Positions 1 to 3,092 of a stretch of DNA of 3,092 nt are shown here, one piece after another. This stretch comes from a virus (taxonomy: Duplodnaviria > Heunggongvirae > Uroviricota > Caudoviricetes): the IMG/VR virus record IMGVR_UViG_2684622670_000015, positions 1 through 3,092 of that record; one strand, written 5' to 3'. A program made the position numbers. Position 1 is the first letter of the stretch, and every line of letters starts with the position of its first letter.

Positions 1-3000
1 ATGACCACTTTCACCGACAAAGAACTGATTAAAGAAATCAAAGAGCGCATAGGCAGCCTGGATGTGCGGGACAATATTGAGCGCCGGGCATATGAAATTG
101 CACTGGCATCGCTGGAAGCCGAACCTGTAAGCCAAGCTTACAACTTGCCAGAATTAATCGAAGGCATGGAAGTTTACATTGATGTAAGCACTTGCGATGC
201 TGATTTAGGTAATCGCTATTCGGCACCGTCACCGAGGGCGTCAGAACTTGATACAGCCAAGAATGGTTACATCCTCCTGGTTCAGGACGCAGAGCCAAAC
301 TTCGATGTAAATGGCAACTCTCCGGTAACTCCGGATGGTTGGATAAGCTGTAGTGAGCGAATGCCGGATAGCAAAACAGCCGTTCTTGTTGCCAGGGAGT
401 TTGACAGGAGAGGTGACTGGCGAATGAAATGGGCGACTTACATCCCTGGGCATCCTGACGCTAATGATGGGTGGATAATTCCTGGTGCGTCGTGGATACC
501 ATCACACTGGATGCCGCTACCAGAACCGCCGCAGGAGGTTAACCGTGGCTAACCTGCAACTTGCCGTCAAAGGTGAATACTTCGATGCCATGATTCGCGG
601 GGAGAAAACGGAAGAGTATCGCCTGTGTAATGACTACTGGAATAAGCGAATTATGTTCCGCGAGTATGACCGACTGATTATCACAAAGGGATATCCGAAG
701 CGCGACGATTCCAGCCGCAGAATTGATGTTCCGTATGGCGGATATGAAATCAAAACAATCACACATCCGCACTTCGGTGATAAACCGGTAAAGGTATACG
801 CGATAAAGGTAAATATCGGCACTGAATAACAATCCTCGCACTAGCGGGGATTTCTTTTATCTGAAAAGGACAGAATACATGATTAACAATATTGCAAATC
901 AGTCTTCGTTTCCGGCTGCAACAATCGACAGCCAGATGCTGTTGAAAATGGTTAATGAGGCGCGGAGACTGTGCGGCGAAAAAGAAGTACGCAACAACGA
1001 CTTCATTGCACGCATCAAAGATGAACTTGAGGGGGAGGGTTACGAAATTTTCGTAACCCCCATGGATAAGAAAAAAGGCGGAGCGGATCAGGTGGTTATA
1101 GTGATGACCTACAAGCAAGCCCTGCGCGTCGCCGCACGTGAGTCGAAAGCCGTCCGTCGTTCGCTGGTCGACAAACTGGAATCAATGCAACAGCAGTTGC
1201 AACAAAAAACGACCACGAAGAAATCACCGGATGGCCTTGAAGAATTCCGTAAGGCACGCGCATTGAAAATGACCGTCGACACAATGAAAGACCTCTTCGA
1301 CTTCCTCCCTCACCTCGCACCGGAAGCTAAACAGGTCGTTGCCGCCAGCCTGATTAATCCCGTCGTCGGCTTTAGTGCAATCCCTCTCCCGATTATTGAT
1401 GAACATTACTACTCTGCATCTGAGATTGGCGCAATGCTTGGCGTCTCATCCAACAAGGTAGGACGCATAGCCAACACCTACATGCTCAAAACGGAAAAGT
1501 ACGGAAAGTGGTTCATCGACAAATCGGCGCACAGTGACAAGCAGGTCGAGACTTTTCGCTACAACGAAACTGGAGTGCACAAAATAGAGGAAATCATCGA
1601 AGGAGAGCAAAAGGTTGCATGATTTTGACAAGATAGTTTTCCCCAAATTTGGGGAAAAGCCCGAATGGCGCGGCTTACAGCAAGATAAAGACCACATGAT
1701 TTGACAAATCCGCCAGAGCTATCGCATACTGACCGCACTAGAACACATATGCGGTCATCCGCACCCGATAGCTTTGCGGCTTTTTTATGCCTGCAATTTG
1801 GCGTAGTTACATCCGTACAAAGGTCGGGTGGAGAGGCGTAATACAATACCCACAAGGGGAATATGCCCGGAGCTTCATATGTGGCTCTAGTTGACACCCG
1901 ATCACCAGCTACTAACTGGTGAGCGTAGACTAAAACACATATGGAGAAGACTATGTCTACTCAAATCACCGTAGAAACGGTACCCCAGATCAGCCATAAC
2001 CAAATCCCCGTTATTACTACTGAACTTCTTGCTCACCTTTACGGCACAGATGTAACTAATATTCGCAAAAACCACAGCCGAAACCATGAACGTTTTGTTA
2101 TTGGTAAACATTATTTTTTGCTGGAAGGTGCAGAATTGCGTGAGTTTAAGCACAGAGTGTCTTTAAGTCACTCTGTGACAATCGCCCGTAACGTTCGCTC
2201 CCTCATTCTCTGGACAGAACGAGGAGCAGCCCGCCACGCCAAAATGCTGGAAACCGATCAGGCGTGGGATGTGTTCGAAAAACTGGAAGACTGCTATTTC
2301 AGCCCGGGGAAAGCAGTACAAGCGGAACAGCACCCGCAAATCCAGCAGCAATTCACAGACGAAGAAATCATCCTCCTCTGCTACATGCAGGTACAGATGG
2401 AGAAAGCACTGGACATTAGCAAACGCCTGTATCCGATATTGAAGGAACTGAACTCATCATACGCAAGCAAGCTGTACGACATCGCGTTTGAGACTTTCTA
2501 CACGGTGATGAAAAACAGAGACGCACTGCTCAGGGAGGCAACACGAATTGACCAGACAAGTGCCCTTTTCGAACGGGCAAGACCAATGCTGAAAAGCCTT
2601 CGGGCGAGACAATTCGAATTTTAATATCAAAGGAGCTTCGGCTCCTTTTTTTACAGGTGAAACTTAATGAAATTCAAAGTCACAGGTGAATGGAATGGAG
2701 AGCCATTCAACAGGGTTATCGAAGCGGAGAACATCAATGACTGCTATGACCACTGGATGCTGTGGGCGCAGATAGCACATGCAGACGTAACCAATATTCG
2801 AATTGAAGAACTGAAAGAACACCAAGCCGCCTGATGGCGGTTTTTTATTACCTGATTTGCAGGTTCGATTCCCTATTCGGAGATAGCACTCATGCAACAC
2901 GAACTACAGCCTGATTCACTGGTTGATTTGAAATTCATCATGGCTGATACTGGCTTTGGTAAAACCTTCATCTATGACCGGATTAAGTCCGGCGACCTGC

Positions 3001-3092
3001 CTAAAGCCAAAGTTATCCACGGACGCGCAAGATGGTTATATCGTGACCATTGTGAATTCAAAAATAAGCTCTTAAGCCGCGCCAATGGGTAA

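What the first reader, a model, noticed from the sequence alone, without database searches (positions are those of the whole stretch)
2858..3092. tRNA-Arg (argW)-like 16-mer sits upstream of the excisionase gene, in an unexpected position for an att core
TTGCAGGTTCGATTCC (2858-2873) matches the argW T-arm, and argW is the integration site of KplE1/Sf6/HK620-type elements (established knowledge, recalled). In a prophage the excisionase must lie inside the att cores, yet here the core-like sequence is 18 bp upstream of the torI-like start, with phage genes on its other side and no tRNA continuation on either flank. Possible explanations: (a) the window is an attP-like junction with phage DNA on both arms; (b) a junction between tandem or mosaic elements; (c) an internal relic site used for regulation or as a secondary recombination target; (d) chance conservation, which seems unlikely for a 16-mer.
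Basis: partly seen in the sequence, partly recalled or inferred. Interest (0 to 1): 0.6.

Follow-up and report, generated by a model that had tools for sequence, protein, structure and literature searches.

The report
tRNA-like block before excisionase gene
The 16 bases that match the tRNA-Arg gene argW are real, but they are not the prophage attachment core, which lies just past the end of the window; they are a conserved tRNA-derived block in the leader of the excisionase gene torI of a well-studied prophage family, and its function is untested.

Summary
It matches E. coli argW nt 46-61 exactly and ends 19 nt before the torI ATG.

The puzzle comes from where the window ends. This is the right end of a KplE1/CPS-53/HK620/Sf6-type prophage. 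The published core, CTGCAGGGGACACCAT, starts 74 nt after the torI stop in K-12, HK620, Sf6 and every related locus, so it lies outside the window. torI is therefore inside the att sites, as expected.

The 16-mer is the argW segment immediately 5' of that core, overlapping it by one base. The same 16-mer occurs in K-12 CPS-53, HK620, Sf6 and Kapi1. A core block, (A/C)GGTTCGATTYCC, is conserved in Enterobacter, Citrobacter, Serratia, Pantoea and Edwardsiella modules, and is far less variable than synonymous sites.

It is not a recombination site: in vitro excision uses an attR that lacks it, and 0 of 5,426 E. coli genomes fuse argW to torI through it. No tRNA and no conserved RNA fold is present.

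My best guess, untested, is a cis-regulatory DNA site for the module's own proteins (TorI-box core GTTCG; IntS B-type half-site).

GenBank records already annotate this stretch, as att core (CUS-3) and as a putative pI promoter (HK620, Sf6). Interest is low to moderate.

The parts
2667..2834 (+). 55-aa ORF, the last gene of the early-left (pL-side) block before the recombination module
   Evidence: ORF list. No Pfam family. Shared with Stx2a_WGPS6-type phages and many E. coli prophages.
2824..2849 (+). Intrinsic terminator: hairpin AAGCCGCC-TGAT-GGCGGTTT plus a T-run. The mosaic joint to the recombination module lies right after TTTTTTATT.
   Evidence: Terminator scan. A hairpin plus T-run precedes the torI leader in nearly all E. 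coli-type loci and in several other genera. Homology with Stx2a_WGPS6 ends at 2849.
2847..2885 (+). Stretch homologous to the HK620 feature 'promoter; phage integration' and the Sf6 feature 'pI; possible integrase expression promoter'. The HK620 'cII protein' site TTGCCTGATTTGC corresponds to 2848-2860, which here reads TTACCTGATTTGC.
   Evidence: GenBank annotations of AF335538 and AF547987. These are predictions by the depositors and are not tested here. The sigma-70 scan finds no promoter.
2857..2872 (+). The 16-mer TTGCAGGTTCGATTCC, equal to argW nt 46-61. This is the B-arm side of attB, ending where the attP/attB identity begins.
   Evidence: The same 16-mer lies 19 nt before torI in K-12 CPS-53, HK620 and 79 IMG/VR loci. 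It is annotated 'attL core/attR core' in CUS-3.
2861..2872 (+). Deeply conserved block AGGTTCGATTCC. GTTCGATT is invariant in 20 lineages. It contains GTTCG, the core of published TorI sites, and TTCGAT, which is shared with the C core-type site of attP.
   Evidence: TorI site cores are from PMC2951348.
2873..2891 (+). Rest of the torI leader: a second, degenerate box CTATTCG (2873-2879) overlapping the Shine-Dalgarno GGAGAT (2879-2884).
   Evidence: Sequence. The second box reads TAGTTCG, CTGTTCG, CTGTCCG or CAGTCCG in other lineages.
2892..3092 (+). torI, the recombination directionality factor (excisionase). The window ends at its stop codon.
   Evidence: 100% identical to K-12 TorI and to PDB 1Z4H, E = 6.6e-43. 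Annotated torI in RefSeq genomes.

Best explanation
The window is the right end of a KplE1/CPS-53/HK620/Sf6-type prophage integrated at argW. The real attR core, CTGCAGGGGACACCAT, lies 73 nt past the torI stop, just outside the window, so torI is inside the att sites.

The 16-mer is not a crossover site. It is a copy of the argW T-arm segment that abuts the crossover region in attB (the 'B' arm). It is carried as part of the conserved recombination module, in the leader of torI between an intrinsic terminator and the Shine-Dalgarno sequence.

Shown here: its identity to argW, its position, its conservation, and its exclusion from the functional att site.

Inferred: it descends from tRNA DNA and is kept by selection as a cis-acting DNA site that helps set torI expression, which the KplE1 literature names as the switch for excision. 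The most likely readers of the site are the module's own DNA-binding proteins. TorI could recognise the GTTCG box, as at its five attL sites where it represses intS. IntS could recognise the TTCGATTCC B-type core half-site. My confidence is about 0.9 for 'conserved argW-derived non-core element of a known module' and about 0.35 for the specific protein-operator mechanism; the single figure of 0.5 is a compromise between the two.
For: Context: the window matches prophages whose last gene is torI, followed by host csc/dsd genes. K-12 CPS-53 runs argW-intS...torI-pawZ.

True core: it starts 74 nt after the torI stop in K-12, L001, HK620, Sf6 and 20+ loci from other genera. The core sequence is from PMC2951348. 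The Kapi1 paper reports the same att site lying between xis and int (PMC8787464).

Tiling: the 16-mer is argW 46-61 and the core is argW 61-75 plus 1 nt. They are separated by 293 bp containing torI.

Descent from the tRNA: Serratia L009 matches argW at 17 of 18 positions (46-63). Pantoea L012 matches over 26 columns reaching into the variable loop and anticodon stem.

Constraint: within E. coli-type modules pi is 0.008 in the 16-mer against 0.064 at torI third codon positions. Across 20 lineages GTTCGATT is invariant and the 12-nt block has 0.92 pairwise identity, against 0.60 at third positions and 0.38 in the upstream non-coding DNA.

Protein-site hints: published TorI sites have the cores GTTCG, GATCG or GTCCG. 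attP-contiguous contigs L203 and L232 keep five GTTCG boxes in the P' arm. L203/L204 carry CAGTTCG...CAGTCCG in the leader, and L205/L206/L208/L202 carry two tandem copies of the block. The C core-type site of attP reads TTCGATGTn in most lineages.
Against: There are no binding or expression data for this stretch. The base after GTTCG is always A here, whereas it is C or T in all 15 arm boxes I could read. Spacing between repeated boxes is 12, 13 or 16 bp, not the 10 or 20 bp phasing of the attL sites. No sigma-70 promoter is detectable for an operator to act on. Fifteen of 55 distinct non-E. coli-identical loci lack the block yet keep an argW-type attR where the downstream sequence is readable, so it is dispensable. 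Excision in vitro works without it (PMC3509656). The 20 lineages used for the conservation figures were chosen because they carry the motif, which inflates the between-genus figure; the within-E. coli pi figure has no such bias. Several key papers could not be read (Panis 2007 JBC, Panis 2010 Virology, Menouni 2013 PNAS, Clark 2001, King 2007).
Confidence: 0.5

Rival explanations
1. Neutral relic: a dead half att site (B arm without a usable overlap region), left by an old rearrangement that placed torI and the P arm inside a copy of the argW 3' end. It has no present function.
For: The block ends at C62, exactly where attP/attB identity (T63 of TGCAGGG) begins, and L009/L012 keep 2 more nt, CCTG. 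The 16-mer and the core tile the argW 3' end. Fifteen of 55 loci have lost the block, and single isolates carry point mutations in it.
Against: Diversity in the block is 8-fold lower than at synonymous sites within E. coli. GTTCGATT is invariant across genera while its flanks diverge. The block is duplicated in tandem in some lineages. A neutral 12-16-mer would not persist at this divergence.
Confidence: 0.15
2. Part of a cII-activated pI promoter, as annotated in HK620 and Sf6. cII would bind TTGC-N5-TTGC (the second TTGC being the first 4 nt of the 16-mer) and drive a transcript through attP into int during establishment of lysogeny.
For: GenBank features in AF335538 ('promoter; phage integration', 'cII protein') and AF547987 ('pI; possible integrase expression promoter'). 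Related prophages encode a CII family protein. A start downstream of the SD would give Int without TorI, as lambda pI does (my inference).
Against: The spacing is N5, not the N6 of lambda/P22 cII sites (established knowledge). The window reads TTAC-N5-TTGC. The half-sites are not conserved in other genera (TTCC, TTAC, TGAC), whereas the would-be spacer GGTTCGATT is the invariant part. No -10 or -35 passes the scan. intS has its own mapped sigma-70 promoter (PMC2951348).
Confidence: 0.15
3. RNA-level leader element: in read-through transcripts the block pairs with, or otherwise masks, the torI ribosome-binding site (AUUYCC with GGAGAU), or it serves as C-rich entry sequence for Rho, limiting TorI synthesis.
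For: The named helix ATTYCC:GGAGAT forms in 85% of cells across 17 lineages, and sliding the partner columns drops pairing for the two named helices together from 73.5% to 34-50%. Single-sequence folds often pair these segments. The leader follows a terminator, so it is transcribed only on read-through. From my recollection of the Menouni 2013 abstract, which I could not read here, Rho controls the transcripts that express torI.
Against: RNAalifold finds no consensus structure, with 0 pairs. The helix has almost no covariation, and its middle pair is broken in 9 of 17 lineages. A T-arm hairpin forms only in the Edwardsiella clade. Pairing does not explain why GGTTCGA is invariant.
Confidence: 0.15
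4. A genuine att core or secondary crossover site, as annotated for CUS-3, so that recombination between argW and this 16-mer excises the prophage without torI.
For: The 16-mer is a perfect direct repeat at both ends of the prophage, and CP000711.1 labels it 'attL core' and 'attR core'.
Against: The HK620 and Sf6 genome records carry the 16-mer, torI, the attP core and int contiguously, and the Kapi1 paper places attP between xis and int. The functional core mapped for KplE1 is CTGCAGGGGACACCAT. A 135-bp attR starting in the last 20 nt of torI recombines in vitro. The Kapi1 duplication is the 17-bp 3' end of argW. Zero of 5,426 complete E. coli genomes join argW to torI through the 16-mer. In other genera the upstream block differs from argW at 1-2 positions of the T-stem, while the downstream core stays identical to the tRNA 3' end.
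Confidence: 0.03

Closest known systems
KplE1 (CPS-53) / HK620 / Sf6 / CUS-3 / Kapi1 recombination module at argW (IntS integrase, TorI RDF)
   Same: TorI is identical. The leader is the same, including the 16-mer. The order is terminator, leader, torI, then (in relatives) an IntS arm-type GGGTAAAA site, an IHF-like site, the core and host DNA.
   Different: Nothing differs in the module itself. The genes upstream of about 2850 are a different mosaic (DUF551, two antirepressor-like genes, a 55-aa ORF), shared with Stx2a_WGPS6-type phages.
pawZ, the annotated argW pseudogene / attR core of CPS-53 in K-12
   Same: Both are short copies of the argW 3' portion inside or at the edge of the prophage.
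   Different: pawZ is the 15-16-nt crossover core (argW 61-75) created by integration. The 16-mer is argW 46-61, lies 293 bp upstream on the other side of torI, and is carried by the phage itself in HK620 and Sf6.
TorI binding sites I1-I5 in the attL P' arm (Panis et al. 2010, PMC2951348)
   Same: They share the GTTCG core. The closest is I4, TGGTTCGC, against AGGTTCGA. TorI bound at such sites represses intS, so there is precedent for TorI acting as a regulator.
   Different: The flanking base is A rather than C or T. The leader has one clear box plus one degenerate box, not phased at 10 bp. Binding has not been tested.
Lambda pI / cII-dependent promoters (the HK620 and Sf6 annotation of this stretch)
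   Same: The position relative to xis and int, and a TTGC direct repeat in the E. coli-type sequence.
   Different: Spacing is N5 rather than N6, the half-sites are not conserved, and the conserved part falls in the would-be spacer.
tRNA-derived sequence in attP of tRNA-integrating elements (identity blocks that restore the tRNA 3' end)
   Same: It is derived from the target tRNA and carried by the phage.
   Different: It covers the 5' side of the crossover, so it restores nothing after integration, and it is separated from the core by the RDF gene.

Membership tests
att core (crossover site) of the IntS/TorI module | Sequence equals the experimentally defined common core CTGCAGGGGACACCAT | tested here: not met
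   The 16-mer shares only its last base with the core. The core is absent from the window even allowing 3 mismatches. The core sequence is from PMC2951348.
att core (crossover site) of the IntS/TorI module | int and the RDF gene both lie between the two copies in the prophage | tested here: not met
   torI lies outside the argW-to-16-mer interval but inside the core-to-core interval.
att core (crossover site) of the IntS/TorI module | Required in the recombination substrate, and recombinant junctions are observed | tested here: not met
   A 135-bp attR without the 16-mer recombines in vitro (PMC3509656). Zero of 5,426 E. coli genomes show an argW-16-mer-torI fusion. The HK620 and Sf6 genome records keep torI between the 16-mer and attP.
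KplE1/HK620/Sf6-type recombination module | TorI-type RDF gene as the last prophage gene, transcribed towards attR | tested here: met
   ORF 2892-3092 is 100% identical to TorI and PDB 1Z4H. The genomic context is shown.
KplE1/HK620/Sf6-type recombination module | attR core (argW 3' end) about 74 nt after torI, with intS next to argW at the other end | not testable with these tools
   The window stops at the torI stop codon. The feature is met in all homologous loci with downstream sequence but cannot be read for this very element.
TorI (RDF) binding site | GTTCG, GATCG or GTCCG core in an 8-nt box | tested here: met
   GTTCG lies at 2863-2867 within AGGTTCGA. The cores are from PMC2951348.
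TorI (RDF) binding site | Box flanks and phasing like I1-I5 (C or T after the core; 10 or 20 bp repeats) | tested here: not met
   A follows the core in all lineages. The second box is 13 bp away, and the spacing is 12-16 bp in other lineages.
TorI (RDF) binding site | Specific binding by TorI | not testable with these tools
   This needs EMSA or footprinting.
cII-dependent promoter (pI) | TTGC-N6-TTGC straddling a -35, with a usable -10 | tested here: not met
   The window reads TTAC-N5-TTGC. There is no promoter-like site in 2500-3092. The half-sites are not conserved.
tRNA gene or tRNA-like RNA (T-arm mimic) | Cloverleaf, or at least a T stem-loop supported by covariation | tested here: not met
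   ARAGORN finds 0 genes. Rfam gives no tRNA hit. RNAalifold predicts 0 pairs. A T-arm hairpin forms only in the Edwardsiella clade.

The most novel reading that the evidence does not exclude
The phage has co-opted a copy of its target tRNA's T-arm (the B arm of attB) as an operator in front of its excisionase gene. On this reading the proteins that read the chromosomal attachment site, IntS and/or TorI, also read this copy and feed back on torI expression, tying the excision switch to the state of the recombination machinery.
Probability: 0.3. Interest if true: 0.55.

Novelty: already known. Interest (0 to 1): 0.3.

Why it matters
The KplE1 authors conclude that in this widespread family excision is switched by RDF (torI) expression, and that how torI is controlled is the open question (PMC2951348). 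The block sits exactly in the torI leader and is under purifying selection, so it is a concrete, cheap target for mutagenesis.

There is also a practical point. The 16-mer direct repeat can mislead prophage boundary calling. The CUS-3 GenBank record ends at it and so omits torI and the true core.

Apart from these two points the finding is ordinary: a known module, with the real att core cut off by the window edge.

Tried and rejected
1. tRNA gene or tRNA remnant in the window. ARAGORN and Rfam were negative.

2. A second copy of the 16-mer, or the true core, in the window. Neither is present.

3. Recombination at the 16-mer. I searched for an argW-16-mer-torI chimera in 5,426 E. coli genomes and found none.

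4. A sigma-70 promoter in the leader. None was found.

5. A conserved RNA structure. RNAalifold predicted 0 pairs. Two helices I named myself pair but do not covary. The T-arm hairpin is clade-specific.

6. The idea that the upstream block tracks each host's own argW. The attR cores imply a GCA.. T-stem everywhere, while the block reads CCAGG, ACAGG or ATAGG, so there is no tracking.

7. A search for lineages that keep an intact B arm plus overlap region (…TTCCTGCAGG) upstream of torI. The viral pattern scan returned only phage tRNA genes and the known Serratia-type locus.

8. Similarity between the attP P arm (CCCCTGC) and the argW anticodon arm. I judged this to be an IHF-type site (WATCAAnnnnTTR), not homology (by eye).

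9. Reading Panis 2007 (JBC), Panis 2010 (Virology), Menouni 2013 (PNAS) and King 2007 (J Bacteriol). None is held. I cannot exclude that the block is discussed there.
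Full report
OBSERVATION. The sequence TTGCAGGTTCGATTCC occurs once in the window, at 2857-2872 on the + strand. It is identical to nt 46-61 of E. coli K-12 argW, tRNA-Arg(CCU). That stretch covers the last two bases of the variable loop, the T-stem 5' strand GCAGG, the T-loop TTCGATT and the first two bases (CC) of the 3' strand. It ends 19 nt before the ATG at 2892 of an ORF that is 100% identical to TorI of K-12 and to PDB 1Z4H. Neither flank continues the tRNA. An exact 16-mer shared with one named 75-nt tRNA is expected about 9e-5 times in 3.1 kb (my arithmetic), and the tool expects 0.04 matches even with 3 mismatches allowed.

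CONTEXT. The window is the pL-side end of a lambdoid or P22-like prophage. It carries a DUF551 protein, a small ORF, a 247-aa ORF, an ORF6N/P22_AR_C antirepressor, a 55-aa ORF followed by an intrinsic terminator, and then torI. In related E. coli genomes torI is the last prophage gene and host csc/dsd genes follow. In K-12 the arrangement is argW-intS ... torI-pawZ-dsdC, which is CPS-53/KplE1. The 313-nt stretch 2780-3092 is found in 2,952 of 5,426 complete E. coli genomes.

WHERE THE REAL ATT CORE IS. The KplE1 core is the 16-nt duplication CTGCAGGGGACACCAT (PMC2951348). The Kapi1 paper reports the same site and states that attP lies between xis and int, so the two genes end up at opposite prophage ends (PMC8787464). 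In K-12, L001, HK620, Sf6 and more than 20 loci from other Enterobacterales the core starts 74 nt after the torI stop. The window stops at the torI stop codon and does not contain the core.

RELATION OF THE 16-MER TO THE CORE. In argW the 16-mer (46-61) and the core (61-75 plus 1 nt) are adjacent and overlap by one base. In the prophage they are separated by 293 bp that hold the SD, torI and the P arm. Comparing attR sequences across genera, identity with the tRNA begins at T63 of TGCAGGG, and the preceding base varies (C, T or A). The P-side core-type site reads TTCGATGTn in most lineages. The upstream block thus ends, at C62, exactly where attP/attB identity begins. It is a copy of the B arm of attB, not of the crossover segment.

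PRIOR ANNOTATION. Three GenBank records already mark this stretch. CUS-3 (CP000711.1) labels exactly this 16-mer 'attL core' (1-16) and 'attR core' (40192-40207), so that record ends 19 nt before torI. HK620 (AF335538) marks ATTGCCTGATTTGCAGGTTCGATTCCCTATTCGGAGATA as 'promoter; phage integration' and TTGCCTGATTTGC as a cII site, and it places the attP core 74 nt after hkaC, which is torI. Sf6 (AF547987) calls the stretch 'pI; possible integrase expression promoter' and the start of a mosaic 'boundary sequence'.

NOT A RECOMBINATION SITE. The HK620 and Sf6 genome records contain the 16-mer, torI, the attP core and int contiguously, and the Kapi1 paper places attP between xis and int. In vitro excision uses a 135-bp attR whose left primer is the last 20 nt of torI (PMC3509656). 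A synthetic argW-16-mer-torI chimera finds no continuous match in any of 5,426 E. coli genomes.

CONSERVATION. In 79 IMG/VR loci encoding an identical TorI, nucleotide diversity is 0.008 in the 16-mer. This compares with 0.064 at torI third codon positions, 0.061 in the 10 nt upstream and 0.018 in the rest of the leader.

TorI homologues at 60-95% identity from Enterobacter, Citrobacter, Serratia, Pantoea, Edwardsiella and uncultured phages all sit 74 nt before an argW-type core. Of 55 distinct loci not identical to the E. coli type, 35 carry (A/C)GGTTCGATTYCC about 20-25 nt before the ATG, 5 carry variants and 15 carry none.

In an alignment of 20 lineages GTTCGATT is invariant. The 12-nt block has 0.92 pairwise identity, against 0.60 at third codon positions (best 12-site window 0.78) and 0.38 in upstream non-coding DNA. 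One caveat applies: these lineages were picked because they have the motif.

Similarity to argW goes beyond the generic T-loop. Serratia L009 matches 17 of 18 positions (46-63). Pantoea L012 aligns over 26 columns into the variable loop and anticodon stem. This argues for descent from tRNA DNA rather than convergence.

WHAT IT MIGHT DO.

(i) RNA. RNAalifold finds no consensus structure. A helix I named between ATTYCC and the SD GGAGAT pairs in 85% of cells but hardly covaries, and its middle pair is broken in 9 of 17 lineages. A true T-arm hairpin exists only in the Edwardsiella clade.

(ii) Promoter. No sigma-70 site is found. The cII half-sites have N5 spacing, read TTAC/TTGC here, and are not conserved elsewhere, while the would-be spacer is the invariant part.

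(iii) Protein site. The five published TorI sites in attL have the cores GTTCG, GATCG or GTCCG, and TorI bound there represses intS (PMC2951348). I mapped them to CAGTTCGC, CAGTCCGC, CAGTTCGT, TGGTTCGC and CAGATCGT in K-12. Contigs with contiguous attP (L203, L232) keep five GTTCG boxes. The leader block contains AGGTTCGA. L203/L204 read CAGTTCG...CAGTCCG, and L205/L206/L208/L202 have the block in tandem. Many lineages have a second degenerate box overlapping the SD. The block also equals the IntS B-type half-site.

Against (iii): the base after GTTCG is always A, the spacing is not helically phased, there is no promoter to repress, and 15 lineages do without the block.

I therefore rank a DNA site read by TorI and/or IntS that modulates torI expression as the most likely function (about 0.35). 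A neutral relic, the pI promoter and an RNA or Rho-level element follow at about 0.15 each.

ORIGIN. This is unresolved. The tiling of the argW 3' end by the block and the core, with the break at the edge of the crossover segment, suggests an old integrase-type or illegitimate event. Such an event would have placed torI and the P arm inside a phage-borne copy of the argW 3' end, after which the left copy lost its overlap region. I found no lineage that keeps an intact left copy.

VERDICT. The 'att core in the wrong place' reading is not: the core is where it should be, just outside the window. The element belongs to a well-characterised module, and the stretch is already annotated in public records, once wrongly as an att core and twice as a putative promoter. 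What I did not find in the papers I could read is that the tRNA-like block is deeply conserved and under purifying selection in the leader of the gene that switches excision. Interest is low to moderate.

Noticed in passing
window 1822-1911 (+): Rfam sRNA-Xcc1 (RF02221) match at 63.8 bits (gathering threshold 53, E = 1.7e-10), lying in the gap before the ORF6N/P22_AR_C antirepressor ORF at 1941-2624.
   Followed up: no
L235 1393-1408 and L236 1-16 (CUS-3, CP000711.1): The CUS-3 record annotates the 16-mer as 'attL core' and 'attR core', so it ends 19 nt before torI and omits torI and the true core. This is probably a boundary mis-call caused by this direct repeat.
   Followed up: partly
L002 10230-10265 (K-12) compared with L055/L064-type loci: K-12 CPS-53 carries a decayed version (ccgtcatagagcgtattttt) of the terminator hairpin that precedes the torI leader in other E. 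coli prophages (ccgcatcaatgcggttttttt). This might alter read-through into torI in K-12.
   Followed up: no
window 2898-2907: torI codons 3-5 (cac gaa cta) contain an inverted GTTCG box. TAGTTCGT on the minus strand matches TorI site I3 at 7 of 8 positions, so the SD and ATG are bracketed by two boxes in E. coli-type modules only.
   Followed up: partly
L205, L206, L208, L202 (about 20-60 nt before the torI start at 1501): Some lineages carry two tandem copies of the block: ACAGGTTCGATTCCCGT CAGGTTCGATTCCCAT in L205, L206 and L208, and GTTCGATTCCCGC GTTCGATTACCAGC in L202.
   Followed up: partly
L202, L210, L217, L016/L194, L230, L205, L207, downstream of the attR core: A P4-type integrase N-terminus (...AKPRDKAYKL.DGGGLYL...) begins roughly 200-300 nt after the attR core. 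This indicates tandem islands that reuse the argW 3' remnant left by the torI prophage (the reading frame was judged by eye).
   Followed up: no
window about 2849/2850; L239 1990-2040: Stx2a_WGPS6-type argW phages share window 1-2849 including the terminator, then switch directly to a different integration module (hypothetical ORF, AlpA-type xis, divergent int). A mosaic joint therefore sits right after TTTTTTATT, 7 nt before the 16-mer.
   Followed up: partly
attR of all loci, about 24-36 nt before the core (e.g. L002 10550-10572): The conserved sequence AATCAAtcccCTG fits the IHF consensus WATCAAnnnnTTR. A conserved GGGTAAAA lies right after the torI stop and recurs, in both orientations, before the intS ATG, so it is probably the IntS arm-type site.
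   Followed up: no
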